Positions 1 to 64,000 are shown, counted from the stretch's first letter. The stretch is 64,000 nucleotides of DNA from an uncultured Bacillota bacterium (GCA_946407495.1 CAMJOB010000001.1:9549-73548), one strand, 5' to 3'. Translations and numbers: made by a program. Notes: generated by a model from the letters alone, not told the origin.

Positions 1-64
1 TATACCCATACATATTATAAATCCTAAAACTCCACATAGACGTTTACTGCTGAACTAACCATTT

Positions 65-286
65 TCAGCACTTAGCATTTCTCTAAACCAATTCATTTCT
101 TTTATGAGATATATGATATTTGTTACACACTTTACATAGATAAACTATGTAATCTTTTAAATTCATTTTCTTAATATATTTAAACGCATCTTTTTCAGTT
201 TCAAAAATTATCTTAGTTTTACCACGTTTATTATAATGACAACGTGGTTTCTTATTTTGTAGATTACTTCTTGGAGCTAATTTCAT
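65..286 (-). CDS. small basic Cys/His-rich protein (possible zinc ribbon); standard ORF 83..286 ends in TAG, frame continues 6 codons to TGA at 65-67
   Basis: ORF track 83..286; terminal codon on minus strand is TAG (plus 83-85 = cta); CxxxxH...CxxC..H..H spacing. Confidence 0.3.
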
Positions 287-528
287 AATTATTTCAAATT
301 ATATAATACCAATCATCTCTTTTCTTCTCATTATCTAAATCATATTTAATATAATTGCCATTCTGGAAGTATACACTCTAATTAGCATAGTCCCATTTAA
401 AATAACCAACGTAATTTGGTAATAAGGCTGTTTTTCCTGCTTTAATTAATTTTTCAATTTCGCTGTATTTCATAATTACGATAATAATACATATTTATTT
501 TAAAATAACAAAATTTAACATTTAAAAA

Positions 529-586: not shown

Positions 587-982
587 ATGGACGTAGTTAG
601 TTTATTTAATTTGTTTTTTCCTGATTTCGATAATACAATCGAAAAAGACGGAAAGATTTACCGAGTAAAACTCGAAGAAATCGAAAAAGAAGACACAGTA
701 AACGTAGCTGATATTAAAAAAGATATTGATAGTTACGTTGAAGACATAGATGCAGAAATCTGGAATGATGCAACAGTTATTTTTTCAAGGAAATATAATA
801 TTGCTTATTTCGATAGATTGTTAAAGAAAGATGTTTTAACAAAAGAAGAATTTTCTCAACTTGTAAACGCATTTACTGCTCTTAAAGAGTGTGTAGCAAA
901 TGCAGCACAAGCAAGGATTAATTATTTAACCGACAAATATTTATCAAGTGATGCTTAGACAAAAGCTAAAGTTGAAGACTGA
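587..982 (+). CDS. acidic hypothetical protein; one in-frame TAG (956-958), stop TGA 980-982
   Basis: ORF 587..958 continues in frame through TAG to TGA; acidic, coiled-coil-like composition. Confidence 0.4.
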
Positions 983-1198: not shown

Positions 1199-1270
1199 TC
1201 CCTTATGGTGTAATGGTCAGCACAGGAGGCTCTAACCCTCTTAGTCTGCGTTCGAATCGTAGTAGGGGTA
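1199..1270 (+). tRNA. amber suppressor tRNA, anticodon CUA (reads UAG); short variable arm and mismatched 1:72 pair favour a Gln-type identity
   Basis: Manual cloverleaf: acceptor tccctta/taggggt (U1:U72 mismatch, A73), U8, D-stem gtgt/gcac with aatggtca loop (G18G19), anticodon stem ggagg/cctct, loop cTCTAac (U33, CUA, A37), 4-nt variable, T-stem ctgcg/cgtag with TTCGAAT loop; no encoded CCA. Confidence 0.8.
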
Positions 1271-1342
1271 CTTCTTCATACTTTTCACGTCACTAAGGTA
1301 TCGGATGACCTTATTGATTTTTACTGTTTTTAATCATGATAA

Positions 1343-1376
1343 AAGGCGGCTTCGTTGTGAAACGAGGTCGCCTTAA
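1343..1376. terminator. bidirectional rho-independent terminator between tRNA/+ genes and the minus-strand gene
   Basis: 12-bp stem aaggcggcttcg / cgaggtcgcctt (two G-U) with 8-nt loop, followed by aatttattat; also U-rich on the other strand. Confidence 0.55.
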
Positions 1377-5159: not shown

Positions 5160-5381
5160 ATGGAAGAAAAAATATATTTCATGCCAGGAGACATAGTAAG
5201 CTTGAAGTAGGATATTCCTAACAAGCCTACTATGCTTGTGGTTAAAAAGGAAACCTATATCTTTAAAAATCAAAAAGATAAATAGGATAATGGTTTAATG
5301 GGAATTCGTTGTAGATGGTTCGCAAATGATGGAACTCTACAAGAAGCAATTTTTAATACAAAAGATCTTATAAAACTATGA
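5160..5381 (+). CDS. DUF2158/YodC-like small protein (73 codons, two in-frame TAG at 5208 and 5283)
   Basis: MPGDIVSLK-x-DIPNKPTMLVV ... GIRCRWFANDGTLQEAIFNTKDLIKL matches YodC family pattern; ATG overlaps upstream stop, TGA overlaps next ATG. Confidence 0.55.
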
Positions 5382-7120
5382 TTAACTATTTTCAACAAGG
5401 AGGACAAGTTGCTGATGAAAAGCAACAAATGCAAGAAATGTTTATGCAGTATCTTGCAGAAAAATATCAAACAGAAGATATAAACGCATTAGTTTAGCAA
5501 TTATAGTCAGAACCAGGTGAAACAGGTGAAACTAAATTAGAAGATGAATTAATCTCATTTCAATAGATGTTACAACAAGGTGGACAAGCACCATTAATGG
5601 CAGAAAAAGGAGCAAAATTAGATTATATTAAATCACTTAAAGGATTTTGTCCAGACGGAACACAAGTTGAATATTATAAAAATGGTAAGAAAATTTGTGG
5701 TAAGTGTATTGCTAAACAAGAAAATGGTGCTAAAATGAACCAGAAGAAATTCTTTACTCCAGCTGATGTTCCATCTGCTTGTAAAGGAGGAAAAGCTAAG
5801 AAATCTTGCAATGGTGCTAAACTTACTAAGAAATGTAAAACAGGTGGAACCATAGAATTTTTTCAAAAAGGAGGAACTCCTAAACTTCAAACTATAACTG
5901 TTGATGGTAAACAATATGGTCGTTATAAAGCTGGACAGCAATGGAGAGAAGTAAATAATGGTAAATTAGGTTCTGCTAAATACGATATTCGTAATGGTAA
6001 AGCACAAATCTTATTAACTAAGGCTGCTAAAGAGCGTGAAGCAAATGAATCAACTGTAGTAAAAGCAAGTGGTGCAAATGCTAAAAACGCTAAATATGGT
6101 AAAACATATAGAGGTGGAGTTTATGCAAATGCTGCATCTCAAGCTGAAGCTGAGAAACGTGCTATTAACGATAAAGTACAATATTACGATTATAACGGTA
6201 AAGTTTATAAAACTAAGTGGAATGATACTCCAACTGCACAAGGTGTAATTGATAATAGAGTTGAAATGGCTGGTCTTTACGGAAACGACTTAGGTTGGCG
6301 TAATTCTGGACGTTATAATGCTAAATCTAGACAGCATCGTAATAATGAAAGAATTTCTGCAAACGGAATGTCTGATGCACAATTTAATGCACAAATTGAT
6401 GCACAAAGACAACAACAATTTGCTGATCAACATAACGCAGAACTTGCAGATAGAGATTTAGCAAAACGCGCAATTGCATCTGAACTTATGGATGCTTCTA
6501 CAGCAGGTTTAGCACGTGGATTTAATCCATTCGGATATACAAATGATATAGTTAATGGAAATTATGGTTCACTTGCAGGTAGAGGTGTTGAAGCAGGTCT
6601 TACTCTCGCTGGTGGATCACTTATGCCTAAGATTCCTGGTATGCACAGACTTGGAAGATATTCTGATGTATTAAGACTTAGTTTAAATAAAGGATTTGAC
6701 AAAGTTGATAATTTCTTATGGAATGGTGTTCCTCAAAAAATTGTAAGTTGGGGTGGACGTTATATGCCAAAGAATAATGGTGGCTTTGTTAGAACTTATT
6801 TTGCTGAACCTTCAATGAGAACAGGTTTAGAAAATGCTAATCCTGTTGATTTAACAGTTAATATTGGAGGTAAGATGGCTAAAGGTGCTGTTGAAGGTGC
6901 TAAAAATGCTGGTAGCAAGATTGGAACAAGTCTTTCTGAGTTTGGACAAGATGTTGGTGCATTAGGTAGACAAATTGGACAAGGAGTTAGTAACACTGGT
7001 GCTAAAGTTAAAAACGCTTGGGTTAATCATCCTGATGATGTTATGTTAGGTGCTGGAGTTATAGTTCCTTCAAGTACAGCAGTTGGAATAGCTGGATATA
7101 ACTATTTTAATAATAAATAA
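5378..7120 (+). CDS. hypothetical Gly/Lys-rich protein (580 aa) with three QQGG-type motifs and Cys pairs; 3 TAG in first 80 codons, none after
   Basis: frame 2 continuous from ATG 5378 through TAG 5537, 5546, 5603 into ORF 5567..7120. Confidence 0.5.
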
Positions 7121-7714: not shown

Positions 7715-10117
7715 ATGAGTGAAATTAAATATAATAAAGATGGAAGTATTGCTAAGAAAAGAGGACGTCCTAAAAAGTAGAAACCTGAAATTCCAATAGA
7801 ACTTCCACAAGAAGTACAAGATATAATTAAAAAGGCTACTGAAGAAGTTCCAAAAATTACTGAAGTTCAAGAAGATCCATTAGCTAAAGTAAAAGAAGCT
7901 GTAAGAGATTCTTTTAATGGATGGGATGTTCCTAAAGAAGAACGTATTACACGTTTTGATAAAAGACTTTCTTATGAACTTACTGGATATAAACCAATTA
8001 CTGCAACTAAAAGTTTAGACTTTAGACCAGAATGGTTTACAGAAGCCAGAGATACCTTTTTAAGAACAGGTAAATATTGTAGTTATCCATTTCGTTCTAA
8101 AGCATACGATGACTTTTGGCATGAAGAATATGTAAGATGTAGAGATGGATATACTGTAAATGGTTATACACTTACAGGACCAAACTATTATTATCTTAAC
8201 TATTATCAATTACCTAATATTGATGTAGAGAAAGCGGGTAGTGGACGTTTAGCTGTATTTCCAAAATTCTTAGTATTTCAATATGAGTTCTTTCATTATT
8301 TTGAAATATGTAGAATACTTAAAAAAGATGTATGTTTGATGAAAGCTCGTGGAGTAGGATTTAGTGAGATTAACGCTGCCATTTGTGCTTGTATTTATAA
8401 TTGCTTTAGAGAAAGTAACTGTATGATAACAGCACAACTTAAAAACTATCTTGATAAATCATTAGATAAAGCATGGAACGCTTTATCTTTTACAAACGAT
8501 AATACAAGTGGTGGTATGTTCAAACTTACACAAGTGCATAACACTCAATATTATAAAAAATCATCTTGGTACAAAAAAGAAAACGGACAAGATATTGAAA
8601 CAGGTTGGAAATCACAAATCGTAGGAATTGTAGCAGATACTGATGCTAAGATTCGTGGTGATCGTGTTGACTTACTTGTTTATGAAGAGGCTGGATCAAA
8701 TACAGCTTTACGAAAATCTTATATTAAGGGTAAAGCCTTAATATATATTGGTGGTAAAAAGTTCGGAATAAGAATGTGTGGTGGTACAGGAGGAGACCGC
8801 GGTATTGCACTTGCAGACCTTGCAGATATGTATAATGATCCTGAGTCTTTTGATGTATTACCATTTTATCACAATTATACACCGTCTGGAGATTGGATTG
8901 AAACTGCTTATTTCATTCCTTCTTATATTGGAGCTGTAACAGAATACGGAGAAGATGCTGATGGTGTTAAAAGAAGACTTCTTGATGAAAGAGGTTATTG
9001 TTTTTGGGAAAATTACAAAGAACAATTAGATTACGATAGATCCAAAATTAAAAATCCTAAAGCATTAATTGAACATTGCGCAGAGTATTGTTATACTGCT
9101 GATGAAGCCTTTGCACTTGAGGGTGAAAATAAATTTAATAAAGTTTTATTAACAGAACAATTAATGCGTATTCGTGTTTTAAAACAAGCACCTAAATTTG
9201 ATTATGGTGTACTTAAATTTAAATACGAGTCTGGAAAACAACATACAAGTGAAAACGTAAGAGGTGTAACTTGGCAATCTACCGCTAAAGGTCCAGGAAC
9301 AATCAAGATTCTTGAGCATCCTTTATGGGAATGTCAACCTAAGAAAGATGAATCTGGAATGATAATCTGGAATCCACCTGATAAACAAGCTAATTTATAT
9401 GTAGCTGGTTGTGACGGTATTGACTTAGGTAAACAAGATACATCTGAATATACAAAAGACCCTTCTGATTTTTGTCTTGTTATTTATAAAAGACAATTTG
9501 GATTAAGTGATCCACAGATTGTTGCTATTTATAAAGATAGACCACAAGACATAAGAGAAGCACATGAAACCGCAGTTAAATTAGCAATGTATTATAATTG
9601 TTTAATTAACATAGAGGCTTCACGTATATCGTTAGTCGGATATTGTAGAGACCGTGGATGGTTAAATTATTTAATGAAACGTCCAAGTATGTGTTTTTCT
9701 GATGTTACAAGAAAACATAGAGCAGGTTTACAATATGGTGTTCCTGCTACTGTAGCAAACATTGACCACCATACCGATTTAACAAGAGATTTCATAAATG
9801 ACTATTCACAAGGTATTTGGTTTGAAGAGTTCTTAGTAGAAGCTACCAAATATAGTGATGAAGAAAAACGTAAATTCGATATTATTGCTGCTACAGGTAT
9901 GGCACTTATGGGTAATGAAGAATTAGGTTCATTAGTTCCTAAAACAGTTGCACCTGTAGAAGTAAGACATCAAGATATTGGATATTATACAGATGATAGA
10001 GGAATTAAACGATTTGGTGTTATTCCAGATAAATACGCTGTTAAACTTAAAATAACACCTCCAACTAAAACATATGGATATGGAAGACAAACTAACCCAA
10101 GATATAGAGACTATTAA
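7715..10117 (+). CDS. terL: terminase large subunit (TerL); one TAG at codon 22 (7778-7780)
   Basis: Walker-A-like KARGVGFS, ATPase core DRVDLLVYEEAGS, C-terminal RNaseH-like nuclease region (YVAGCDGIDLG); frame 2 continuous from ATG 7715 into ORF 8336..10117. Confidence 0.85.
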
Positions 10118-10361
10118 ACAAGAAGTTATTGATATAGTTGAAGAATTATATGAATGTAAATTTATAGGTAAATTAAAAGTTACAGCATTAGATCCTGTTG
10201 GATATTCTGTAGCAATTGATTTATTATAGGGTGAAGATCCCATATTTATCACTGCAGAATTTCCTCATGATAAATTCTTAAAATTCTTATGTGAAGAATT
10301 AAGAATGAGAACTTTAGATAGAGTACAATTATTTGGTTTATATAAAGTATTTCCTAAATGA
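10074..10361 (+). CDS. small hypothetical protein (95 aa) overlapping TerL 3' end in another frame; one TAG (10227); TGA overlaps portal ATG
   Basis: frame 0 ORF from ATG 10074 through TAG to TGA 10359-10361; acidic helix-rich. Confidence 0.3.
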
Positions 10362-12553
10362 CTGCTGAAGACGAAAGATTAATAGAATTAACAAACAGAA
10401 CGATTTCTGATTTAGTATACGAAAAGACGGAACTTCAGAAAGCGTATAACATATATAATGGAAAACGCGACAAAGAGTAGTATAAGTATCTTGAAGATAA
10501 TTTCGGAATAGGTACACCTACCTCTGTCGAGTTTACTCCATTAGTAAGAAAGCACGTTGATGCTATGGTAGGTGAGTTTTTAGGAACTCCTATATTACCA
10601 AAAATTACGTGTAAAGATAAAGAAACAATAAGTAATATACAACGTGAAAAGCAACTTAAAATAAATGCTGAAATTGTAGATTATTTAAAGCATCATTTAC
10701 AAAATTAGATTTTAAGATTTATTACAGGAAAAGCAATGGATGATACTTCTGTTAAAAATAAACTTCAACAAATTGTAGAAGATTTAGATGAAGATTTTAT
10801 TTCTGAATATGAAGTTGCTGCTTAGAATGTAATACAATATATTTTACAAAGTAGAAGAACTGATTTATTAACTAAATTAAAGTTAATTTTACTTGATTTA
10901 TTTATATCAGGATATACTTTTTATAGAGCTAAACCTTCTACTGCAAAAACTAATGTTGAAGTAGAAGTTTTAGATCCAAGAAATACATTTATTGATAGAA
11001 ATCCAGAATCTCCTTATGTAAAAGATTCATATAGAGCTGTAGTTAGAAAATGGTTGAGTAGACCAGAAATATTAGCTCGTTATGGAAAAGATTTATCAAA
11101 AGAAGATGTTGATAAATTAAGAGAAGAATTTGAAGGATTAGATCAAGGTGGAAGTTTTTATAGAAGAAGTCTCGAAGGTGTTCCTTCTCCAATGTCAGAA
11201 GGAATACAAGCAAGATTTGAAGGAACAATAGGTCTTGATGCTGAAAGTAATGCAAATTATAGACTAATTCCTGTATATGAAGTAGAATGGATAGAAACCG
11301 ATGAAAATTTTGTAATGCAGAGATATGAAACAATTCGTATTGGAGATAACCAATCAGAAGATAGTTTCTTTATCTTAAAAGGAAAGAATGAAAATGTAGT
11401 TCGTTCTAAAGATGATCCTGCATTTTGTACATTATCAATAAATGGTTTATACTTTTTAAATAGAAACGATGAACCTTATTCTTTAGTTTTAGCTTGCGCG
11501 CATCTTCAAGACAAATATGATATACTTCACTTTTTCAGAGATAATCTTATTGCAAATAGTGGCACTGTTGGTGATTGGATCGATGTCTCGCTTATTCCAA
11601 CATATTTAGGACCAGAACCAACAGAAAGACTGCTTAAATGGATCAGTTACAAAAAATCAGGAATAGGATTAATTGATACAGCTCAAGAAGGTAGAATTGC
11701 TTCAGGACAAGCTCCACTTAATCAAACTTTTAGTGGCTTTGATGATACTATTAAAGCTCAAGCAATTCAATCTATACAATTAGCAATAGAAGATGTTGAA
11801 AATAACTGCTCTTCTATTACAGGTGTATTTAGAGAAAGACTTCAAGGTATAGAACAACGTGATGCTGTTACTAATATTAAACAAGGTGTTCAAAACTCGT
11901 TTATTGTAACTAAGCAATGGTTCCATCAAATGGATACTATTACTGCAGAATTATTAATTGATTCTTTAAATGTTGCTAAAGTTGTTTATAAAAAAGGACT
12001 TACAGGAACAATTATTCTTGGTGATAAAAGACAGAAAATATTTACTGCTTTACCAGAATATTTCACAGTAACTGATTATGATATAAGTGTTGTTACAAGT
12101 TCTGAATTAATTCAAGACTTGGAACAAATAAAAGCAGTAGTTCCAGAATTTATTAAATCTGGACAATTACCTGCTGATATATTATTTGAAATTATAACTT
12201 GTAAGAGTCCATCTGATATTAAAATAAAAATCAGAAAAGCCTTAAAGAAACAAAAAGAAGAAAATAATACAATTCAGCAATTACAACAACAATTACAAGA
12301 AGCTCAACAACAATTACAACAATTACAAAATGAAAATTCTCAGCTTAAATCTAAGGTTGAAGCACTTAATGAAAAGAGACTTCAATTAGATGCTCAGAAA
12401 ATTCAACTTGATAATAAAGTTAATATGTTTAAAGCTCAAACTGATAGAGATTACAAAACAATTGAAGCACAAGTTGATCAAGATAAAGTTAAGATAGAAC
12501 AGGCTCAATTATACGATAATAATCCATATAATGATAAAATTAGAATGTCATGA
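10358..12553 (+). CDS. portal protein (call by size, position after TerL and C-terminal coiled coil); 3 TAG codons
   Basis: frame 2 continuous from ATG 10358 through TAG 10475, 10706, 10823 into ORF 11054..12553; 731 aa. Confidence 0.55.
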
Positions 12554-18975: not shown

Positions 18976-19109
18976 TTTTCAAAAATTACTTAAACGATTA
19001 AATGTGGGTTATTAGGACGATTATCAAAAGATATTGACTAAAATAACTTTTATAGAAGTGGCAAGTTAGTTAAAAAATCCTTACTCAATTTATGAAAAAT
19101 TATTAAGTT

Positions 19110-51482: not shown

Positions 51483-51935
51483 ATGGCTAATAAATTAAAA
51501 TTAATTCCAAAAGCATAGAGAGGAGCAGTTATTCCTAATGGAAGAGAAACTTTACCAGCAGGATTAACTTTAGAACAGTATCTTAACGCAAAAGATCAGT
51601 TAATGAAACTTTACGGAGCATCTGAAATGAATCCTATTTATGGTTCTCGTAAAGGTGATGATACTATTGAACAAGCTGTTAACTTTATTGGAAGACAAGC
51701 TCCAGCTGCAGCTCCAACAACACCAACACAGCCATCAGCAACTGTGCAGACTCCACAAAGTAATAGTAATCTTCTTAATTCATTTAAATTAATTGCACCT
51801 AAATTTGCTGAATTAAAAGGAACAGACGCTGCTCCAATTCAAGCAAGACCAGGTGGAAATCAAGAAAATGATATTCAGCGTGAAGCAAGATTAAGAGCAC
51901 AAAATTCTGAACTTGGAAGATTCTTCACTCATTAA
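51483..51935 (+). CDS. hypothetical protein (150 aa); TAG at codon 12
   Basis: ATG 51483 frame 0 continuous into ORF 51603..51935. Confidence 0.4.
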
Positions 51936-52981: not shown

Positions 52982-53015
52982 AGGAGCGCACACTAACAAT
53001 GTGTGCTCCTTTTTC
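52982..53015 (+). terminator. rho-independent terminator
   Basis: 11-bp stem aggagcgcaca/tgtgtgctcct (one G-U), loop ctaacaa, then ttttt. Confidence 0.6.
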
Positions 53016-53022
53016 ATTTAAT

Positions 53023-56000
53023 ATGGCTCAAGTAAAGAAATTTTAGCAAGGTGGTTCCGTTAATTCTAACCTTTTTGACATAGGAGGTAGAAATGTAAAT
53101 AAAAATGATTTTATTTACTTAGCTAAAAAGAATTGGAACACCTTCAAATCAAATTATAATATCTCAGGCGATGATGCTGTTGATGCTGATAATGCTTTTA
53201 ATAAAGTATTACAAAGTATCGAAAGAGGAGATATTAGTTCAATGGGTGAAAATGGAGAATTATTCGATAAGACAGGTACATTATCAAATAATTCAGACCA
53301 GAAAAACTCTTACGGTAAAGCAGCTCAATATTTATGGGAACTTGGCGTAGGAATGGACACCTATCAAGAAGATAATAAAAAGAAAGGACTTAAATACGAA
53401 GATACAAGAGGAGCTTTAGGTAATATCATTAATAATAGTTTTTATGGTGGTAATTATACAGGCTCTGACCAAGATATTAAACTTTGGCTAAATCAAGATG
53501 CTGTTGATGCTAACGGAGTTCGTTCTAGAGTTAATAGAATGAATGCTTTAGCTAATTATTTAGAAAAATTAAAAGCAGATGTAAATACACAAGATATTGA
53601 TTATGAAGGAAGTAAATATAAAGATAAAAATGAAAGACTTTCTCATATTGATAATGCTATATCTCTTCTTAAAAAAGGAGAATATAACGATAATGTATTA
53701 CGTGCTTTAATGGATGTTGGTGATATGACAAGTACTCAAGCAATGTCATGGTTAGCTGATGGTACAGAACAATCAACTCAACAAAATCCAGAAGAACCTG
53801 CTCAACTTTCTGATGATGACAAAATAAAAGTACTTGCTAAACAATTAATGCAAGAAAGACCTGGTGTTTCATTAGAAGATGCTACTTCTTTAGCAACAGC
53901 TAAATTCAATCGTGATAAACAACAATCTCAAGCTCAAATCAGAAAAGAAATTCAAGACATCAACTTTAATAATTGGTTTGATGAAGTTTCTAAAGATTTC
54001 CAAGCAACTAATTTTAGTTTACACGATCCAAAATATAGTTTAAACTATTATAAAAATACTGATGCACCAAATTTCGGAATACACGATACTATCATTGATA
54101 AGTATGAACAATTAATGTCAGGTAAGAATAGATCTTTTATTGACTATTATAAAGTGGCAAATTCAGGTGTTAAACATAGACTTAGAGCATTACTTGATAT
54201 AGAATCTGAACGTGCCGAAAGAGATGGTTTTACAAAAAATCTTAGAAAACTTGGAAACGGTTTATATGCTTTAAGAGGATATACTCGTTATAATAACGGA
54301 TATGCTTGGGTATATAATAGTAGAACAGGTGATTTAAATAAAATACAAACTAAATCAAATCCATATTTGTTTGAAGAAAACGAAAAATGGTGGACTACTA
54401 ATAATGCTAAATATAAGCAAGGTGGTATTCTTTTTGCTCAACAAGGTGCAAGTATTAGAGAAATTCTCGCAGAAGAAACAAAAAATGCTAGACAAGCAAG
54501 ACAAGATAAAATTAAAACTGCATCAAAAGCTCAAAATAGACCAGAAGAAGCAGTAAAGAATGGTTCTAAGAAAGCGAATAGTTTAGGTGAAGCATATGAT
54601 AATATGAACACTGCAAATAAAGTTAGATTCTATTCTGCTGTTGGTGATTTAACAGGTGCTGTTGCTTCTTTTGTACCAGGTTACGGAAATGCAATTTCTT
54701 TAGGTCAAGGTATTATATCTGATGTTGCAAGAGCAGGTGCTGATATTTCAGAAGGATATTCAGCAGGTGATGTAGCTTGGAATTTTGCTAAAGGTTTAGG
54801 AATGACTGCTATTGGAGCTATTCCATTAGTAGGTACAGGAACTAAATTATCAAAAGCATGGAAAGCAACAAGAGCATTTGTTCCTTGGGCACTTAGTATT
54901 GGTGCAACAATGGGTGATGTAAGTGCTGCAGAACAAGCATATAAAAATATAGAATCTGGTAAAGGTACAGTTGATGATTATATGGCTATGGTTAAATTGC
55001 TAACAAGTGTTTCTAATACAACAAAACTTGGAAGTAGTACACTTAAAGCAAGAGCTATTAAAAATGCCACAAAAACTAATAATACTGAAATTACTATTAA
55101 AGGTAAAAAAGGTAACATTAAATTAAATCAACAGCAATTAGACAAATTAAAAACAGCTAAGACTCAAGATGAAATGAACCAAATGATTAAATCAATGGGA
55201 CATAATGATGAAATAGCATTTAGTCGTAATGTATTTGGTGAAAATCTTAAGCCTACAGATGCTGGTCGATTTGGAAAATCAGCTAGAGTAACTAAATCTC
55301 CAGTATATGATTTTAGTTTAGTTGCTAATAATTCAATATATAGAAAAGGTCCTGTTTCAGAAGTCGGAATGATGCAAATGAATGTAAATCGTCCATCTTG
55401 GTTACATTTACCATCAATTGGTTATAAACCTACTACTGTTACAAAATCTGCAACACCTGTTGTAGCACCTAGTGTAACACCTACAAGAGTTGCAGCTTTA
55501 CCTAATTCTCCATTACGTTCTAATACTCCATCACCAATTCCTCCAGCAACACGAATGATAGGAAGAAATAATAAACTAACAATTGGTGGATATAAAAAAG
55601 GAGGACGTATAGAACGTCTAATTGAAAAATATCAAGCAGGTGGTAAAACAGTAAAACAATATGGTTTACCAACAGATGATATTTGGAACGCTGTAATATA
55701 TGATTTAGATAATCGTTATCGTAATAACTTTACAAATGATACTGATTTTGATTATGTAAATCGTAATATTGATGTTACAGATAAAGTAAGTCCTAAAAAC
55801 AATCTTTATGATGTAGAAGGAAATAAACCTTATACAGATCCTAAACAATTAGAACTTTATCATAATCAAGGTAAATTAGTTGAAGATAGAAATAAAAACT
55901 TTTATAAACAATTATTAACAAACCCTGTTCTTGCTGAAAAGTGGGCACGTGATTATTTAAAATATAATCATTCTACTACTCATGGTAAAGAATGGTTTGA

Positions 56001-57423
56001 AAAGAATAACATTATTAAAGACGGCATTTTTAATTTTGGTAATTTTGTAAATGCTAAATATAATGGAAATCGTTTATGGGAAGACCATTTAAATGCAACA
56101 GGACATGATGTTTATAAAGGTAAAGTTTATTATATTGAAGGACAAGATGGTTATTATGGAGATAAATTACCAGAAGGATATAGGATTGATCCTACTGATC
56201 AAGGTATTGATGTTGAAAATGGATTAATAAGAAAGTATAAACTTATTAAAGATCCAACTCAACCACAACCTAATCCACAACCTACTCCACAACCTCAAAA
56301 CAAACAGTCAGTAATAACTCCTCCTACTAAGGAAGAAGTTCAACCTACTACAACAAATCCTTCAGTAGTTCAACCTAAATCTAATTTTGATCCAACTCGT
56401 TTAGGTGCTGATGCACTTGCATTAAGAACAGCACTTGATACTATTAGAACTAATAATTTATTAGCTGATAGAGCTTTAGGAAAACAACTTCCTTTAAAAA
56501 ATCCTAATAGTATGGTTGCTCCAACTGCTGATGTTTATAATATCTTAGCAAATGGACAACAAAACGCTGGACAAATTAATACACAAGGTCGTCAAGCACA
56601 AAATAGTGTTGCTAATACAGAAACAGGTCTTTTAGCAAGACTTCATGCTGCAAGAGATGCTACTAAAGTAAAACAAGAAGCAGGTCTAAAAGCAGATGAA
56701 AAACGTCAAGCATATGCTGATAAGGCTGTTGAAGTTGGAAATTACAATCACGCTCAAGAAGTTGAAACAGGTAATTTTAACAACGGTCAACTTGTTAATA
56801 AAAAGAATATGGACATAGATATTCTTAACGGACGTGATGCAGCTAATTTACAAGTTCGTTCTGCATTAAGTGATAAATATGAATTAGATTTAAGACAAAA
56901 ACTCGCTAAGGCTGAGGCTAAACGAGATATGGAAGAGCAAAAAGCTGAGTTAAAGAAAGAACAAATTGCTGATATGCAAGAACAATGGAATCAAAGACAA
57001 GTTCAATTGTTAACAAATTATCATATGAATGTTGATCCAGCTTATGTAAAAGCACGTAGAGGTTATGAAGAAGCTGTTAAAAATAAAGACACAGCAAATG
57101 CTTCTAAATATAAAGCGGATATGGATGTTATTGCAAATAAGTATAAAGTAGATGCTTATAATCAAATGGGACGATATAGTGCTAATAGATATGGAGTAAA
57201 TTGGAATGATTTACAAATATCTAAAAATCCTTATTCATATTCAATGCCTACTAAGAAAGCAAAAGGTGGAACAATTTATGATAATATATTCAAGGCTCGA
57301 CTTGATGACAATAGAAGATTTGATAAAAGAATTTCAGAATCTATAAAAACTACTTAGAAAGCAATTGGAGATAGCAGTGCTATCACAAAAGCTATTCTTA
57401 ACAAGTTAATGAGTAAGTGGTAA
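53023..57423 (+). CDS. giant virion/cargo-like protein (1466 aa) with N-terminal KFQQGG motif (Q encoded by TAG at codon 8)
   Basis: ATG 53023 frame 1 continuous through TAG 53044 into ORF 53242..57357, through TAG 57355 to TAA 57421-57423. Confidence 0.5.
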
Positions 57424-57424
57424 T

Positions 57425-59332
57425 ATGATAAAATTTTTACAATCTGGAGGTGGTTTACCACCTTTTCAATATTATAGACCAGTAACGGTCACAACTCCTA
57501 GTGGATCAGTAGCACAACCTCAAAGTGCTACTGCATCTACAAAGGAAACAAAATCTGATGCGTTAACTGATAAAGATGTTCTTAAAGCATTAGATAAAAT
57601 AGATGGACTTCCTTCAGATATGTCCGTTCTTAAATCAGGTTTAGTATCTGCATTAGGTACAGATTCTGGTTTTAGTATATTCGGTTCATCTGATAGTCTT
57701 TTTGGTAGTATCAATCAAATTGCAACTCAATATGCTGATACTTTATTAGGAATTAAAATTGCTAATTTTAGTAAAAAGAAATATGATGATATTAAAAAGA
57801 CACTTGACCAAAATGGCGGATTGAATGAAATTGCCGTTACAGATTCTGGAGGAGTATTAGTAACAGATAGGGACGGAGAAATATCTCAAATTTCTATAGA
57901 TACTTATTTATAGAATAAACACAGATACAAGGCTCTTACTAATTCAAATATTCTTTATATGAGAGCCTATAATCCAGACTATGCTAACAATGATGCTTTA
58001 ATGGATATAGCATCAAATGGTATTGGTCTTACTGAAATTAATAAACAAATTAAAGGAGCACTTGGAAGTCTTGGTCACGATGATAATACAAGAGAATCTT
58101 ATACTGTTATAAAAGGTGTAGAAGCACTTAAAGAAATATATAATAAAACAGGTGAAATAAAACCTGAAGGATTATATAAAATTAAAAATGCTACATCTAC
58201 TCAAAGAGATCAAGCACAAGCAGCTATCAATTATATATGGAATATGTTACCTGAAAACTCTAAAGCAGTTCTTAAATTGAAGTCAGGTAGTGAACAAGAT
58301 GCTAAACTTCTTGTTGCTAATTTTGTTGCTTCTGGAACTACAAGCAAACAAGATTATGGAGAAAGCTATATTCTTGATGCTGAGGGTAACAAACCAGGTG
58401 CTAAGAAAGAAGGCGAAGGTGGTGAGAAAAATGAATACAAACCAGGAGTTGTTTCTAATTTCATTAGAGGTAACGGTAAGCCTTCATCTTTTGTAATAAT
58501 GAATGGAACTACAGATGGTTTAGTTGTTCAAGGTATAACTTCATCATTAACAAATAATTCTGGTAAAATATTAGGAGCTTCAAGTTTAGCTACTATTAAT
58601 AAAGGTGGATATAATGGAGTTCTTGATTGGAATAATGTTAGTATGGGTGGAGTACCTATATCAGAAGCACATTTATCTGAATTAATGTGTACTGATGGAC
58701 GTATAACTTCTATTGATTTTCCTATTGATATAGCGGAAAAACAAAAAGGAAATATTGTTCCTAATTATGAAATGTTTGCATTAAAAGAAAAAGCTGATAG
58801 AGAAATAAAGGCTGCAAACTTAGAAGAAAAACAAGATTATGATTCAATTAATGCTATATATGCTAAATACAATCTTCCTACTAAATATGATGCAAGTGGT
58901 AATTTAATTACAACTCATTGGGCAAGATTTGGAGTTATGCAAGGTGTTGCATTAAGTAAAGCATTTGATGATGATCAATCATTTAATGATTTATTAAAAG
59001 AAGTTTCAGATAATGAATTAGAAAGTTACTTAAAGTTATTCAATAATGAAGCACACATTAGCGGTTCACAACAAGAATTAAAAGGAAAAGATATTGAATT
59101 TGATAAATCAAGTTGGTGGGATAAAATGTGGGGTAACGGACAACATTGGTGGTCTACACATGATCAAATGTTTAAAGGTACTATATTTATTCCAATTGTT
59201 GTTGATGAATTTGCTGCTATGGCGGGTGATGATAGTCATACCAAAATAGATGAAAATGAAAGAATAGCTGGTTTACAACAAGATCACGATTTACAAGAAA
59301 CAACTTAGTTACAAGGTCGTCTTGATGAATAA
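57425..59332 (+). CDS. virion/cargo-like protein (635 aa) with N-terminal KFLQSGGG motif; 2 TAG
   Basis: frame 2 through ORFs 57425 and 57959, TAG 57911 and 59306, TAA 59330-59332. Confidence 0.45.
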
Positions 59333-62300
59333 TGGAAAAGAATTATGATTTAATTTTAAATATGACTGCTAATCCTGGACTGTCTTTAGGTAATCTAAAG
59401 ACAGTTGGATTAACAGCTGATAATACTGCTTTAGAAAGTGAAGACAAGTATTTAAATTCATAGAAAATTCAGAATATGAGCATTTTTAAAGATGATGAAG
59501 GAAACTTTAGTAAAAGTAAATTTCATGATTTTTATAAAGTAGCTCAATCAACATATAATATAATGGCTAGTGACGCATATACAGATGACGTCGCTAAGAA
59601 AAGTCGTACCTATCACAGAGATAATATTTTTGCACCTCTTGAACAAAGAAGAAAAGGTCCAGAAATAAATTGGGTAAAACAAAGTAATCCATTTAAATCT
59701 ACACAAAGTATTGTTCGTTTAGGTAAGGTAGAAGATGGAAAATATACATGGGATGAACTTGCACAAAGAGAAAAAGTTCTTGCAAATCCTAGAGAGGCAA
59801 CAAGACCTGATGGAACTATTGATGAATCTAAAGCTATTTGGCAAGATGCACCAAATGATTCTTGGTTTAGTAATTTCTGGGAAACTCGTGTAGCTGCACA
59901 ATGGGATGAAGACGGTGAACATTTAAATCCTGTTACAGGTGAAAAAGAAACACATAAAAAAGGAGATTTAAAACTTAATTCTTCTGGTAATTTCTATTAT
60001 GAAAATCTTGATGGACGTGATGTTTACGGACGTAGAGTTCTTAATAAAATGAACACTTTAACTACTGATGGATCTGAATTTAATAAATATGATTTCTTTG
60101 ATTCTGATGGTAAAGATAAAAGTGTTGGAGGAACTATACTTAAAAATGCAGCCTTAGTTGGTTCTATGTTTATTCCTTATATTGGACCTGTTGTAACAGG
60201 ATTAGGATTAGCATCACAAACTGCTGGTTTACTTGGAACATTAGGTAAAATGGGAGCAAATTTTGCTAATGATAATCTTGGTACTAACATAAACAATTCT
60301 ATATTTTCTGAAATGGAAGGATTTAGTAAATCTGTAGGCAGAAATGCAGTTTCAGAATATTCTCAGCAAAATATGTGGTCTGCTGAAAATTTAATTGGTT
60401 TAATAGGTGATGTAATGGCTCAATTTAAAGAGCAACGTTTCTTATTTGAAAAAGCACCAATTATTTTTAATAATAAATATGGAATTGTAAATAATGGTAA
60501 TTATCAAAGTAAATTAGCTGAATTAGAAAGTCAAATTGCTAAATTTGATAAAACAAGAATTGATGATTTAGTAAAATCAGGAAAAACTATTACTGATATT
60601 CAAAGAGCCGCTAAAGAACTTGCATTAGTAAGACAAGAAAGAGCGGTTACTGAACTTGATTCTTATATTAAAGGATACAATAAGATAGGAGAAATCTTAT
60701 CTAAAACATATATGACAGGTCTTGTTGTAGGTGATACCTATGGTGAGGCTAAATTACAAGGAGCATCTGATAATGAAGCATTATGGCTTACACTTGGATA
60801 TGCTTCAGCCGAAGCCGCATTACTTAATACAGGTGTTGGTGAATGGCTATTTCCAGAACTTCGTTATAATAAACTACATCAAAAAGCTATTGGTGAAGCA
60901 TTAGTTAAAGCTAAAAACGAAACAGCAAAACTCGGTGAAAGTTTAACAAGTTCTGCAATAAAGAAAGGTGAAAAAGAGGCAAAGAAAGATTATGTTAAAA
61001 GACTTTTTAATCTTGGTAAAAAAACTGCTGAAGATTTATATACAGCTAATAAATCAACTGGAGACAAGACTATAAAAGCAGCATTTGCTAATGCTCTTGG
61101 TGAAGGTACTGAAGAAGTAACAGAAGAATTTTTAGCAGATTTCTCTAAATCTTGTTTTAATGCAATAGGATGGTTAAGAGGAGATAATACTCGTTTAGAA
61201 GCATTTGACAATTTTAATTGGCAAGATCTTCTTAGTAGATACTCTATGAACTTCTTAGGAGGTTTTATTGGAGGTGGAGCCGCTGGATTTAGTTTAGATA
61301 ATATGCGTAATATGAAAAAGCTTGACCATATGGAATTCGATCAAGCTATTCAAGAACTTGCATATATTGTTCGTAATGGACAAACTAAGGAGTTCCTAAA
61401 GACTGTTGATGAAATGACTTTAGGCGATAGACGTAAATCTGCAACTCAATTTACTAAAGAAGGTGATAATTATGTTTGGGCACAAGGTACTGATGAAGAT
61501 AACCAAGATCTTGCAGCTAAAAATGCAATTCGTGCACAAATACAATTATTTGAAGATATACTTTCAAGCGAAGGTATTAAAATGAGTGATGATTCATTCT
61601 TATCAAAAAATGTTGATTTACTACCAGATATTAAATTTGGTCTATTAAAACAATCTTCTACAGCAGGTCGTTTCCTACAACAATTTAACTCTTTAAGTAC
61701 AAAATTAATTGAAGCAAATGCTTCATTACTTGCAGCTAAAGGTAAATTGACTGAAAATTCAGAGAATAAAGAAACAGGAAACGCACAAGTTGATATTGCT
61801 GATAATCAAAAACAATTATTACAACAACAAATAGCTCAAATAGAGCAACAATTACAAACTGCATCAACTGAAGAGCAAGTTGCTTTAAAAGAAAGTCTTA
61901 AAAATCTTAAATCTCAATTAGGTAATCAACAAAACGGAGCAAGCGAAGTTCAAAGATTAGAAAGACAATTAAAAGATTTAAGACAACAAAAAGAAGACTT
62001 AATTTCTGGAAAACGTGCTAATGAATTTTTACAAGATTCATTATATGAAATGACTGATGCTATTAATAATAACTTTATTAAACCATCATTTATTCGTTAC
62101 GCAGAATATAAAACTAAAAAGAAGTTTAACGAAATTCCAGAAAATCTTTTAGGTAAACTTCAACAAGAATGGAAAGCATGGGGAGAAATGGACAGAGCAG
62201 AACAAGTACACCAATCTGCTGAGATATTCAAAAATGTACTTGTTAATTCAATGCCTATTTTAACTCAAAATGTTGCAAAATATGAAGAGTTACTTCAATC

Positions 62301-64000
62301 ACAAGATGTTGCTAATTTACAAGAAAACTTTGCTAATTGGTTAAATCTTTATCAAGATATATCTAATGTTAGAAATTCTGATAATTGGATAGAAAAAGTA
62401 TCTGCATCATTATCTAGTTTATATCAAGGAATTGGTTTAGTATTTTCTGATGAAACTTTTAGAAATAACTATAGTAAACTTGTAGAAGATGCTATTAAAT
62501 TAGAACAAAAGTTTAATGAGCAACGTGCTGAAATAAAAGGTAAAATTAATGATGCTAATATTAACACAAGTTTATCTCAAGATGAAAAGACTCAATTAAT
62601 TGATGATCTTAATTTACAATTACAAGCATTAGAAAATAATTATAAAAAGGATTCTAATGAACATAGTAAAAAACTTGATTTTGCAGTGTCTGACCAACTT
62701 GTTAAATCAGTTGAAGATTTAGTTAATCCTTATATCAAACAAGGATTTATTAATTCTGAAGTAAAACACGCTTTAAAAGAAATTTTAACTCAGGCTCAAT
62801 CTGTTTTAAGACAACAATCTAGTCCTTATCATACAACATTAGCAAATCTTAGATGGAAAAAGCGTTCTGATGAGGAAGAGAAACAACTTAAAGAAGCAGA
62901 GGAAAAAATAAAAGAAAGTAACGGTCATAGAGACAGATTTAAAGAAATACAAAAACAATTAGATACTTTAAGTTCTTCACCTATTGAACAAATACTTGAT
63001 CAATTTACTACATCTGTTGGAAGTGATATTAAAGTTTCAGCTTTATTAAAAACAATTAATGATATTTTAGATGGTGTTAAATCTGATGTTACTCAATTCT
63101 CATTAAGTAAACCATTATCAGATCAAATTGTAGAAGCATTAAATCTTATTGATTTATTAGGTTCTGTAATTGAAGCATCTAAAGTAGATGAAGGTAACAT
63201 TGATCATATTTATGGTTATACTAAAGTATTAAATGAAATTAACCATAAAGTTGGTAACTCTAAATGGGTTGATTTAGCAGAACTTAAATCTTCAACAGCT
63301 GATGTGTTAAAACAAGATTTATCAATTATAAGAAATAAACTTAATTTCTTATATAATCTTTATGCTATTTCTTCTGGACAAAAATTTGCTGAACAAAAGA
63401 GAGTTTCTTTAAATACAAATTATTTATTCTATAATAGATTAAATCAATTTGTTGCTGCCATCCCTGATGATAATGAATGGGAAGGTTTAAGTGAATTAAA
63501 GAATAAACTTAATTCATTAGCAACTTTAAGTAAAAATGCTCCAACAAGAAATTTAACACTTAGCACAGAAGACCAAAATAAAATAGACGAAGAGGTAATT
63601 CAAATGGAAGATGCTATTTATGATTTCTTCCAAAAGAATATCGAAAACGTAAAAGATAAACAAAAACTTGCTAATTTACTACATAAAAATGTTAATCTTT
63701 ATCAATTACCTACTGAAACTTTAACAAGTAAACTTGAGGCAATAGATGATAACTCATTTGTTTGGTGGTTAGCAACTCGTGGTGCACTTAAATCTACAGA
63801 CTTCCATAAAGAATATGCTGCTATCATAGACGATAAGATAGCACCTATTCCTACACAAGAAATTGCAACTTATGAGAACTATGCATCCATTGTTAATAAA
63901 GATTTCTTTACTGATTTTTATAATGGATTCAGACAAGCAATTAAAGATGATTGGAGTACTTTAGATGAAGATGGAAGACTTGAAATTATCAATCAACAAA
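59332..64000 (+). CDS. giant coiled-coil-rich protein, 5'-partial in window (more than 1555 codons, runs off the window end); 1 TAG at codon 44
   Basis: ATG 59332 (TAATG overlap); frame 1 has no TAA/TGA to position 64000; not in ORF track because it has no stop within window. Confidence 0.5.

What the first reader, a model, noticed from the sequence alone, without database searches (positions are those of the whole stretch)
1..64000. In-frame TAG codons are read as sense throughout the late/structural genes (amber stop-codon reassignment)
In at least 25 genes a single reading frame continues for hundreds to thousands of codons through TAG, never through TAA or TGA. Examples are TerL 7715-10117 with TAG at 7778, the 1834-aa ORF 12550-18054 with 12 TAGs, 43507-48777 with 5 and 48779-51466 with 8. 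All gene ends I could verify are TAA or TGA. The standard-code ORF track therefore splits real genes into fragments. Together with the CUA tRNA at 1199-1270, TAG is best read as a sense codon, most likely Gln.
Basis: seen in the sequence. Interest (0 to 1): 0.8.

Follow-up and report, generated by a model that had tools for sequence, protein, structure and literature searches.

The report
Amber codon read as glutamine
This is a stretch of a crAss-like gut phage genome in which the stop codon TAG is used as a glutamine codon, decoded by the phage's own suppressor tRNA; the reading is correct, but this kind of recoding is already well documented for these phages.

Summary
With TAA/TGA as the only stops, the + strand tiles into 46 tightly packed genes. 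Of these, 26 carry 69 in-frame TAGs, and coding density rises from 70% to 91%. A frame model trained only on uninterrupted standard-code ORFs finds 43 TAGs flanked by the same best coding frame on both sides. Only 3 TAA/TGA pass that test, and all 3 are ordinary boundaries between same-frame neighbours.

Gln is the decoded residue on several grounds:
- Against the closest relative, window TAGs align with Gln 24 times and TAG 17 times. Gln beats every other amino acid by about 10^27 in likelihood.
- Two of the three portal TAGs fall in columns that are Gln in 119-120 of 120 homologues, and in 29/29 standard-code relatives.
- The tRNA at 1199-1270 (anticodon CUA) has a tRNA-Gln body. It is 94% identical to the CUA tRNA of Crassvirales cr60_1.
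- In the portal family a CUA tRNA occurs at the same position in 20/50 TAG-recoded loci and 0/30 others.

Hallmark genes (Crass_capsid, crAss_MUZ, Ring) place the phage among crAss-like phages, probably the large-genome Zeta-like group.

This matches published work (Yutin 2021; Borges 2021; Peters 2022). Minor additions: TAG use is uneven among genes, and TAGs are concentrated in the first 50 codons.

The parts
1199..1271 (+). Suppressor tRNA with anticodon CUA and a tRNA-Gln-like body. It has a U1.U72 mismatch and discriminator A73, and no encoded CCA.
   Evidence: ARAGORN and Rfam RF00005 at 52.4 bits. It is 94% identical to the tRNA(CUA) of Crassvirales cr60_1, which is annotated tRNA-Gln. 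It shares its D-arm, anticodon stem and variable loop with genuine tRNA-Gln(UUG/CUG).
1343..1374 (+). 14-bp G+C-rich hairpin followed by a T-rich tail, just after the tRNA and just before the end of the convergent - strand gene. It is a likely bidirectional terminator that closes the short 587-951-tRNA unit.
   Evidence: Terminator scan found 3 sites in 1-2400 against 0.5 expected.
587..982 (+). Small gene upstream of the tRNA with a TAG at 956, 8 codons before TGA. The next gene's ATG (951) overlaps this TAG, so the TAG may be the real stop here. This is unresolved.
   Evidence: No homologue was found in relatives.
5160..5381 (+). 73-aa gene with TAGs at 5208 and 5283.
   Evidence: 5208 aligns with TAG in 3 recoded relatives and with Gln in 24/24 standard-code relatives.
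5378..7120 (+). 580-aa gene with TAGs at 5495, 5504 and 5564.
   Evidence: All three align with CAA in the closest relatives.
7715..10117 (+). Large terminase subunit with a TAG at 7778 (codon 22).
   Evidence: phrog_6681, E = 1e-72. The closest relatives have CAA at this position, with 20/21 identical residues before it.
10074..10361 (+). 95-aa gene with a TAG at 10227.
10358..12553 (+). Portal protein with TAGs at 10478, 10706 and 10823.
   Evidence: phrog_6547. Amino acids 41 and 156 lie in invariant Gln columns, while aa 117 is in a variable column.
12550..18054 (+). 1834-aa protein (fibre-like) with 12 TAGs: 12628, 12778, 12883, 12952, 13894, 14674, 14998, 15343, 15499, 16315, 16396, 17209.
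   Evidence: One frame is colinear with the relative's ORF over aa 1-1817. The aligned codons are CAA 6 times (12628, 12883, 13894, 14998, 15499 and one further locus for 12628/12883) and TAG at 3 positions.
18169..18975 (+). 268-aa gene with TAGs at 18238 and 18253.
18953..19117 (+). 54-aa gene with TAGs at 19013 and 19067.
   Evidence: 89% identical ORF in the relative, with CAA at 19013.
19110..20456 (+). 448-aa gene with TAGs at 19275 and 19314.
20458..22503 (+). 681-aa gene with TAGs at 20476 and 20926.
   Evidence: The relative has CAA at 20476.
22510..24279 (+). 589-aa gene with TAGs at 23035, 23188 and 24208.
28166..28429 (+). 87-aa HTH-like gene with a TAG at 28223.
29117..29905 (+). 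262-aa gene with a TAG at 29309.
   Evidence: Split into 64+147 aa in the standard-code ENA call.
29908..30270 (+). 120-aa DUF7841 gene with TAGs at 30010 and 30028.
30397..30810 (+). Holin (Phage_holin_4_1) with TAGs at 30427 (codon 11) and 30571. It lies directly upstream of the TAG-free M15 endolysin at 30807-31223.
   Evidence: Precomputed Pfam annotation. The TAG at 30427 is conserved as TAG in the relative.
35029..36339 (+). 436-aa gene with TAGs at 35041 (codon 5) and 36331.
   Evidence: The relative has TAG at 35041 and CAG at 36331.
37543..38223 (+). 226-aa gene with TAGs at 37825, 38074 and 38209.
   Evidence: The relative has CAG, TAG and CAA at these positions. Split into 94+41 aa in the ENA call.
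39351..39929 (+). 192-aa gene with TAGs at 39393, 39453, 39675 and 39762 (4 TAG against 1 CAA/CAG codon).
39926..43507 (+). 1193-aa gene with a TAG at 39932 (codon 3).
   Evidence: The TAG is conserved in the relative, and the start overlaps the upstream stop.
43507..48777 (+). 1756-aa muzzle protein (crAss_MUZ) with TAGs at 43519, 44083, 44314, 45559 and 47080.
   Evidence: Pfam annotation. The relative has TAG, CAA, CAA, TAG and CAA.
48779..51466 (+). 895-aa gene with 8 TAGs: 48872, 48983, 49349, 49580, 49898, 50549, 50738, 50747.
   Evidence: The relative has CAA 4 times, TAG 3 times and AAT once.
51483..51935 (+). 150-aa gene with a TAG at 51516.
52999..57423 (+). 1474-aa gene with TAGs at 53044 and 57355. 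The first sits in the motif KKF-X-QGG, where paralogous motifs have Q.
57425..59332 (+). 635-aa gene with TAGs at 57911 and 59306. The real stop is TAA at 59330, which overlaps the next ATG (TAATG).
59332..64000 (+). Very large gene that runs off the window, with a TAG at 59461 (codon 44). In a 98%-identical contig the frame stays open for 3088 codons through 7 TAGs.
30807..35021 (+). TAG-free block: M15 endolysin, a 99-aa gene, an acidic 377-aa gene, the major capsid protein (32680-34098, Crass_capsid) and a 281-aa gene. It holds 52 CAA/CAG codons and 0 TAG.
   Evidence: P(0 TAG | window-wide share) = 0.015.

Best explanation
The window is part of a crAss-like phage genome that uses UAG as a glutamine codon (NCBI genetic code 15) in many of its virion, tail and lysis genes.

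Shown here:
- TAG, and only TAG, interrupts otherwise continuous, conserved reading frames.
- TAG positions correspond to Gln or TAG in relatives.
- The phage carries a structurally normal tRNA with anticodon CUA whose body is that of tRNA-Gln.
- In the wider portal family, this tRNA at this genomic position is found only in TAG-recoded members.

Inferred, not shown:
- The tRNA is transcribed from the short standard-code-compatible unit 587-951-tRNA and is charged by the host glutaminyl-tRNA synthetase.
- It then competes with host release factor 1 at UAG, so TAG-bearing genes give full-length protein only once the tRNA has accumulated.

TAG behaves as a rare Gln codon. It makes up 7.8% of TAG+CAA+CAG, about as common as CAG. 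It is avoided in the capsid block and concentrated in the first 50 codons. Both features fit a codon that is decoded inefficiently, or one that gates translation.
For: - Frame-model count of stops flanked by the same best coding frame on both sides: 43 TAG against 3 TAA/TGA, the latter all real gene boundaries.
- Coding density rises from 70% to 91%.
- Gln is favoured by 27 and 19 log10 units in the two directions of the codon alignment to the closest relative.
- Portal aa 41 and 156 lie in invariant Gln columns.
- Standard-code relatives have Gln in 24/24, 29/29 and 29/29 loci at three window TAG positions.
- The tRNA scores 52 bits against the Rfam tRNA model.
- It is 94% identical to the CUA tRNA of Crassvirales cr60_1.
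- Among IMG/VR tRNAs sharing its D/anticodon-stem motif, anticodons are CTA 98, TTG(Gln) 7 and other 2. In bacterial genomes the non-CTA hits are two tRNA-Gln(UUG).
- Relatives show compensatory changes in the acceptor, anticodon and T stems.
- A CUA tRNA lies 8-9.5 kb upstream of the portal gene in 20/50 TAG-recoded loci and in 0/30 standard or TGA loci (Fisher p = 2e-5).
- crAss hallmark domains are present: Crass_capsid, CrAss_Ring_1 and crAss_MUZ.
- Literature: TAG to Gln with suppressor tRNAs in late genes of crAss-like phages (PMC7886860); metaproteomic proof of code 15 in crAss-like phages (PMC9523058); the regulatory model (bioRxiv 10.1101/2021.08.26.457843).
Against: - There is no protein-level evidence for this particular phage.
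- About 30% of window TAGs align with residues other than Gln or TAG in the closest relative. Genuine Gln codons behave similarly (448 of about 600 conserved).
- The tRNA differs from canonical tRNA-Gln at position 72 and at the discriminator (U72 and A73 instead of A72 and G73), so charging by GlnRS is inferred, not shown.
- The closest relative contig shows no tRNA at the syntenic spot.
- Temporal (late-only) use could not be tested, because the replication module lies outside the DNA I could fetch.
- A 697-aa gene on the opposite strand just upstream of the window also carries 19 TAGs.
Confidence: 0.93

Rival explanations
1. TAG is a sense codon but encodes something other than Gln. Candidates are pyrrolysine (ARAGORN's label) or a single-step neighbour of TAG such as Tyr, Lys, Glu, Leu, Ser or Trp.
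For: ARAGORN names the tRNA 'tRNA-Pyl'. Several TAG columns are variable in relatives, with Asn, Ser, Lys and Glu. The tRNA has A73 and U72 rather than the G73 and A72 of the genuine tRNA-Gln aligned here.
Against: - ARAGORN assigns the name from the anticodon alone, and it gives the same label to all CUA tRNAs here.
- The tRNA fits the general tRNA model end to end with a normal D-loop and T-loop.
- No pyl-type genes appear among the precomputed Pfam hits of the region.
- The likelihood from aligned residues puts Gln 27 log10 units above Glu, His, Asn and Lys.
- Wherever a TAG column is conserved, the conserved residue is Gln.
- Most aligned codons are CAA, which is two mutations from TAG. 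That points to constraint at the amino-acid level rather than mutational proximity.
Confidence: 0.03
2. TAG has two meanings in this genome. It is Gln in most genes, but it is still the working stop codon of a few small genes translated before the suppressor tRNA accumulates: 587-958 (+), 286-83 (-) and the next - strand gene.
For: In these three small genes, which flank the tRNA and the divergent intergenic region, the only TAG lies 3-8 codons before the next TAA/TGA. In two of them the downstream gene's ATG sits just before the TAG, giving the short overlap typical of coupled genes. Ten further - strand ORFs upstream of the window have no TAG at all. The published model expects early genes to be compatible with the standard code (bioRxiv 10.1101/2021.08.26.457843).
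Against: There are only three cases. TAGs near the C-terminus of other genes (36331, 38209) align with CAG and CAA in the relative, so they are sense codons. No homologues were found that could settle where 587-982 ends. Enrichment of TAG in the last 10 codons is not significant (p = 0.08).
Confidence: 0.3
3. The interrupted frames are not functional: they are decaying pseudogenes, assembly or sequencing errors, or frames joined by chance.
For: None specific. It is the default reading of interrupted ORFs under code 11.
Against: - Only one of the three stop codons interrupts frames.
- Many TAGs are conserved as TAG in relatives at 75% aa identity (17 positions).
- The same capsid gene, with the same gene layout, sits on at least 20 independently assembled contigs.
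- The interrupted genes include essential ones (TerL, portal, muzzle, holin).
- 50 of 80 portal-family loci show the same TAG-only pattern.
Confidence: 0.01

Closest known systems
TAG-to-Gln recoding (NCBI genetic code 15) in crAss-like phages, Beta, Delta and Zeta groups (Yutin et al. 2021, PMC7886860; metaproteomic validation by Peters et al. 2022, PMC9523058)
   Same: - In-frame TAG, and only TAG, occurs in TerL, portal and tail genes.
- There is a phage-encoded CUA suppressor tRNA, 94% identical to that of Crassvirales cr60_1.
- crAss hallmark genes are present.
- An intein interrupts a core gene.
- Close relatives use TAG, TGA or the standard code, as reported for the Zeta group.
- Relatives have genomes of 170-193 kb.
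   Different: Nothing essential. This lineage is lightly recoded: TAG is 7.8% of Gln-type codons, against about 41% in the heavily recoded relatives. Its TAGs are unusually concentrated near gene starts. Its TerL is only 27% identical to classified Crassvirales, with the best match at 43% to an unannotated gut phage.
Stop-codon recoding as a regulator of late and lysis genes (Borges et al. 2021/2022, bioRxiv 10.1101/2021.08.26.457843; Lak, Agate and other recoded gut phages)
   Same: Recoded codons occur in structural genes and in the holin. The tRNA lies in a short unit that can be read with the standard code. The host is presumably standard-code.
   Different: No phage release factor or aminoacyl-tRNA synthetase was seen in the region examined. 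The endolysin and the major capsid gene are TAG-free. Timing is not tested here.
E. coli supE (glnV44) amber suppressor, a tRNA-Gln with anticodon CUA
   Same: Same principle: a tRNA-Gln body with a CUA anticodon inserts Gln at UAG in competition with RF1. From established knowledge, GlnRS reads U35 and tolerates C34.
   Different: The tRNA is phage-borne. It serves as the routine decoder of dozens of codons rather than as a suppressor of mutations. It also differs at 1-72 and at the discriminator base.
Pyrrolysine decoding of UAG (pylT/pylS)
   Same: UAG is read as sense by a CUA tRNA.
   Different: The tRNA has an ordinary cloverleaf. No pyl genes are seen. The aligned residues are Gln, not Lys-like or Pyl sites.

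Membership tests
TAG-to-Gln (code 15) recoded phage | In-frame TAG, but not TAA or TGA, inside otherwise continuous coding frames | tested here: met
   43 TAG against 3 TAA/TGA (all real gene boundaries) in the frame-model test. There are 69 TAGs in 26 genes.
TAG-to-Gln (code 15) recoded phage | Coding density and ORF length recover when TAG is read as sense | tested here: met
   Density is 69.9% under code 11 and 91.0% with TAG as sense. The TGA-sense control gives 70.8%.
TAG-to-Gln (code 15) recoded phage | TAG positions correspond to glutamine in homologues | tested here: met
   Likelihood favours Gln over Glu by 27 log10 units. Portal columns 41 and 156 are Gln in 119-120 of 120 homologues. 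Standard-code relatives have Gln in 24/24, 29/29 and 29/29 loci.
TAG-to-Gln (code 15) recoded phage | Suppressor tRNA with anticodon CUA (common in such phages but not universal) | tested here: met
   A CUA tRNA at this position is associated with TAG recoding across the family, in 20/50 recoded loci against 0/30 others.
TAG-to-Gln (code 15) recoded phage | Gln is actually incorporated at UAG in the protein | not testable with these tools
   This needs LC-MS/MS. It has been shown for other crAss-like phages (PMC9523058).
TAG-to-Gln (code 15) recoded phage | Recoding is confined to late genes, with early and replication genes in the standard code | tested here: inconclusive
   The exonuclease block 2259-5158 and 10 upstream - strand ORFs lack TAG. 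However, a 697-aa upstream - strand ORF has 19 TAGs, and the replication module was not retrievable.
crAss-like phages (Crassvirales and relatives) | Hallmark virion genes: crAss-type major capsid, ring and muzzle proteins, with related TerL and portal | tested here: met
   PF23898 Crass_capsid, PF24228 CrAss_Ring_1 and PF25731 crAss_MUZ on contigs carrying the identical genes. TerL tblastn hits are dominated by Crassvirales at 24-30% identity.
Zeta-like large-genome crAss group (Yutin 2021) | Genome of 145-192 kb, inteins or introns in core genes, and mixed codes among close branches | tested here: inconclusive
   The identical capsid gene lies on a 181-kb contig but also on 102-103-kb contigs. 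Portal relatives lie on 170-193-kb contigs. There is an intein in the exonuclease. Codes among 80 relatives are TAG 50, standard 29 and TGA 1. No phylogeny against named Zeta genomes was made.
Pyrrolysine system | Atypical tRNA-Pyl architecture together with pylS/pylBCD genes | tested here: not met
   The tRNA fits the general tRNA model at full length and has a tRNA-Gln-like body. No pyl domains appear among the precomputed Pfam hits. The rest of the genome was not examined.

The most novel reading that the evidence does not exclude
In this lightly recoded lineage, TAG codons are not placed at random. They are held near the 5' ends of long late genes (12 of 47 within the first 50 codons, against about 3 expected) and kept out of the capsid block. 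Without the suppressor tRNA, ribosomes would therefore stop after a few codons. TAG would then act as a cheap translational gate, or as a codon whose failure cost is minimised, rather than as just another Gln codon.

The bias weakens as recoding becomes heavier. It is 4-5x in the window, 1.4-1.7x in lightly recoded relatives and 1.1-1.25x in heavily recoded ones. That trend suggests an evolutionary path from gating to wholesale code change.
Probability: 0.25. Interest if true: 0.45.

Novelty: already known. Interest (0 to 1): 0.2.

Why it matters
For annotation, it matters a lot. Under the standard bacterial code, about a fifth of the coding sequence in this window is lost. TerL, the portal, the muzzle protein, tail proteins and the holin are all cut into fragments. 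Public ENA calls for the same genome are fragmented in exactly this way.

For biology, this is one more example of a documented strategy of gut phages. It fits the picture that closely related crAss-like phages switch between TAG recoding, TGA recoding and the standard code. The only modestly new points are the uneven use of TAG between genes and its concentration near gene starts. Both bear on whether recoding regulates expression.

Tried and rejected
- Megablast of 20 kb against GenBank phages (INPHARED) found nothing. Relatives had to be reached through proteins.
- PHROGs and Pfam searches cannot take DNA references that contain TAG. Proteins were entered with X at the TAG positions instead.
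- ARAGORN's 'tRNA-Pyl' label was rejected as a naming convention based on the anticodon.
- The minimum-free-energy fold of the tRNA is not a cloverleaf and is no better than shuffles (z = -0.8). This was disregarded, because the covariance model and the compensatory changes in relatives are the relevant tests.
- No tRNA was found in the first six related loci. It was found later at the syntenic position in 20 more distant TAG-recoded relatives.
- I tried to decide whether the TAG at 956 is a stop by finding homologues of gene 587-982. None exist in the fetched loci.
- The 5' enrichment of TAG was tested in 107 unrelated crAss-like loci around suppressor tRNAs. It was weak (codons 1-20 only, p about 0.04), and start-codon over-extension could explain it. 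I therefore do not claim it as a general rule.
- I looked for a phage release factor or GlnRS among the precomputed Pfam hits of the region and saw none.
- I compared the window with the 2026 preprint on an amber-reassigned Crassvirales genus. That phage is different (36% GC, no CUA tRNA).

Full report
**What the window is.** The 64-kb window has 29% G+C. Almost all its genes are on the + strand.

Identified genes:
- Large terminase, 7715-10117 (phrog_6681).
- Portal, 10358-12553 (phrog_6547).
- Major capsid protein, 32680-34098.
- M15 endolysin, 30807-31223.

Contigs that carry the identical capsid gene have precomputed Pfam hits to Crass_capsid, CrAss_Ring_1, crAss_MUZ, Phage_holin_4_1 and Peptidase_M15_3. 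TerL finds mainly Crassvirales, at 24-30% identity. Its best match, at 43%, is an unannotated human-gut phage. This is therefore a crAss-like phage.

The same capsid gene sits on at least 20 public contigs, including ones of 102-103 kb and one of 181 kb. Portal relatives at 53-60% identity lie on contigs of 170-193 kb. This resembles the large-genome Zeta group of Yutin et al. (PMC7886860). I did not build a phylogeny to prove that placement.

**Checking the observation.** With TAA and TGA as the only stops, the + strand tiles into 46 genes with minimal gaps or short overlaps. Of these, 26 contain 69 in-frame TAGs. The annotated stops are TAA 31 and TGA 14, and one gene is cut off by the window end.

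ORFs defined this way cannot contain TAA or TGA, so I made a test that does not assume the answer:
- A codon model was trained only on ORFs of at least 250 aa that are uninterrupted under the standard code. Stop codons were scored as neutral.
- I then asked which stop codons lie in the frame that is the best of all six over the 40 codons on each side.
- The result is 43 TAG, 1 TGA and 2 TAA.
- The three non-TAG cases (22501, 22504, 31517) are true boundaries between adjacent genes that share a frame.

Coding density is 69.9% under code 11, 91.0% with TAG as sense and 70.8% with TGA as sense. Public gene calls illustrate the practical effect. ENA standard-code calls split the genes, while Logan calls read through TAG. 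The Logan portal protein carries Q at all three TAG positions.

**Which amino acid.** IMG/VR holds a 76-kb relative, UViG_3300037400_001273, and more distant ones.

*Closest relative.* The codon alignment covers 16,629 codons at 75% aa identity. Window TAGs align with TAG 17 times, Gln 24 times (almost all CAA, two mutations from TAG) and other residues 19 times. Using the substitution frequencies observed in the same alignments, Gln is favoured over the runner-up (Glu) by 27 log10 units. For the relative's TAGs against window residues it is favoured by 19.

*Portal homologues.* Among 120 portal homologues, the columns of TAGs 10478 and 10823 are Gln in 119 and 120. This includes all 57 sequences also held by ENA/NCBI. 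The third TAG (10706) lies in a variable Ser/Gln column.

*Standard-code relatives.* To avoid any circularity from code-15 translations, I used 29 portal-family loci that are not recoded and translated them with the standard code. Window TAGs 5208, 10478 and 10823 align with Gln in 24/24, 29/29 and 29/29 loci. The other nine aligned TAGs sit in variable columns.

*Further hints.* A 697-aa ORF just upstream of the window becomes typically Gln-rich if its 19 TAGs are read as Q. The TAG at 53044 falls in a recurrent KKF-Q-QGG motif.

**The tRNA.** The gene at 1199-1270 matches the Rfam tRNA model over its full length at 52 bits and has anticodon CUA. 'Pyl' is only ARAGORN's name for that anticodon.

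- *Nearest annotated relatives.* These are the CUA tRNAs of Crassvirales cr60_1 (94% identity) and cr7_1, both annotated tRNA-Gln. Next comes the genuine tRNA-Gln(CUG) of Mycobacterium phage Wildcat at 79%.
- *Motif search.* I searched with its D-stem, anticodon-stem and variable-loop motif, leaving the anticodon free. IMG/VR gave CTA 98, TTG (Gln) 7, TCT 1 and CCA 1. In one genome per bacterial species, the only non-CTA hits were two tRNA-Gln(UUG).
- *Covariation.* Relatives show compensatory changes in all the stems examined.
- *Difference from canonical tRNA-Gln.* The window copy has U1.U72 and A73, where the genuine tRNA-Gln have U1-A72 and G73. Charging by GlnRS is therefore an inference.
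- *Association with recoding.* Of 80 portal-family loci, 50 are TAG-recoded, 29 standard and 1 TGA-recoded. A CUA tRNA lies 8-9.5 kb upstream of the portal, as in the window, in 20 of the 50 and in none of the other 30 (Fisher p = 2e-5). It is the only tRNA found in these loci.

**How it most likely works.** Several steps are shown. UAG is a sense codon in this genome, it corresponds to Gln, and a matching phage tRNA exists and is tied to recoding across the family.

The rest is inferred from the published model (bioRxiv 10.1101/2021.08.26.457843; PMC7886860) and from the local anatomy:
- The tRNA follows two small genes after a 300-bp AT-rich divergent region, and it is followed by a strong hairpin at 1343-1374.
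- Once made and charged by the host GlnRS, it competes with RF1, so TAG-bearing genes yield full-length protein.

TAG is a minor Gln codon here, at 7.8% of TAG+CAA+CAG. Its use is uneven between genes (permutation p < 5e-5):
- It is absent from the endolysin-to-capsid block (52 Gln codons, P = 0.015) and from the exonuclease block.
- It is frequent in tail, fibre-like and small genes.
- It is present in the holin at codon 11.

**Position within genes.** TAGs are concentrated near gene starts. In the first 50 codons there are 25 TAGs, against 11-14 expected when TAGs are shuffled within each gene. In genes of at least 300 codons there are 12 of 47, against 2.5-3.2 expected (p < 2e-4).

All early TAGs lie in N-terminal stretches that align with relatives from residue 1-14 (all but three from residue 1-4), and most starts abut the upstream stop. 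Misplaced start codons are therefore unlikely to explain the bias.

Relatives show the same direction, but weaker:
- Lightly recoded relatives: 35 against 20-26 expected.
- Heavily recoded relatives: 144 against 116-129 expected.
- Unrelated crAss-like loci: only marginal.

I could not find this point in the Borges preprint by text search. It would fit either gating of translation or selection to reduce the cost of failed suppression. I regard it as a lead, not a result.

**Open points.**
- Two small genes in the window, and one just upstream, all next to the tRNA and the divergent region, have their only TAG 3-8 codons before the next TAA/TGA. For two of them the downstream start codon sits just before the TAG. 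TAG may therefore still be their stop. No homologues were available to decide.
- The replication module was not retrievable, so 'late genes only' remains untested.
- Downstream of the window, the gene starting at 59332 stays open for 3088 codons through 7 TAGs in a 98%-identical contig. There the public call stops at the first TAG.

**Comparison with what is known, and verdict.** TAG-to-Gln recoding with suppressor tRNAs, mostly in late genes, is described for crAss-like phages. That description includes frequent code switches between close branches and inteins or introns in core genes (PMC7886860). Recoding is surveyed across gut phages (bioRxiv 10.1101/2021.08.26.457843). It is confirmed by metaproteomics (PMC9523058) and built into annotation tools (PMC11210395; bioRxiv 10.1101/2022.06.29.495998).

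The window meets every testable defining feature of that class. The interest lies mainly in correct annotation and in the side observation on TAG placement.

Noticed in passing
window 2259-4172 (+): A PD-(D/E)XK-type exonuclease (phrog_298) is interrupted by an intein-like insert of about 340 aa (roughly aa 195-535). The insert matches intein-bearing TerL and helicase-loader PHROGs. Relatives (L002 3033-3938, L121, L122) encode an uninterrupted 300-301-aa version.
   Followed up: partly
L002 about 6237-9758 and L006 about 7590-10879 (relative UViG_3300037400_001273): In the closest IMG/VR relative, TerL and the major capsid gene are each split by insertions of about 1.1 kb and 1.9 kb that the window lacks. 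These are probably an intein or introns, as reported for crAss-like phages.
   Followed up: no
window 25598-27970 (+): The 790-aa TAG-free protein has an internal duplication of its first 270 aa or so (aa 1-270 against about 273-540). The relative matches only aa 272-790, so the extra copy may be specific to this lineage. No PHROG hit.
   Followed up: no
window 5390, 5570, 50717, 51173, 52683, 53041, 54412, 55630, 57437: A recurrent (K)F-Q/K-QGG motif occurs in five proteins (5378, 48779, 52644, 52999, 57425), often within the first 20 residues. It may be a shared targeting or processing signal of internal or ejected proteins. One copy has TAG at the Q position.
   Followed up: partly
window, all TAG-bearing genes (for example 39932, 43519, 35041, 20476, 51516, 53044, 7778, 59461): TAG codons are concentrated in the first 50 codons: 25 observed against 11-14 expected, and in long genes 12 of 47 against about 3. 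The bias is weaker but in the same direction in TAG-recoded relatives.
   Followed up: yes
window 956-958 (+), 83-85 (-); L121 8913-9146 (-): Three small genes around the tRNA and the divergent region have their only TAG 3-8 codons before the next TAA/TGA. For two of them the downstream ATG sits just ahead of the TAG. TAG may still be their real stop.
   Followed up: partly
L121 6839-8932 (- strand, just upstream of the window start): A 697-aa ORF on the opposite strand carries 19 TAGs, clustered in the N-terminus. This region reads as a Gln-rich stretch (TAQQKAQQNQAAQQAQ) if TAG is Gln. Ten neighbouring - strand ORFs have none.
   Followed up: partly
L171 103-192 and L172 303-391: Two CUA tRNAs of TAG-recoded relatives are 89-90 nt long, with an extra insert of about 17 nt after the anticodon arm. 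This could be a long variable arm or an intron-like insert.
   Followed up: no
L135-L212 (80 portal-family loci): Within one portal family (53-60% identity), 50 loci are TAG-recoded, 29 use the standard code and 1 is TGA-recoded. TAG accounts for 11% to over 40% of Gln-type codons. The window, at 7.8%, is at the light end.
   Followed up: yes
window 48779-51466 (+): The 895-aa protein contains two copies of a conserved module of about 90 aa (NVIPEGALHAxLHHMD...KKGxPVxD...QAEIExxEIIFRLxVTK), at about aa 560-650 and 805-895.
   Followed up: no
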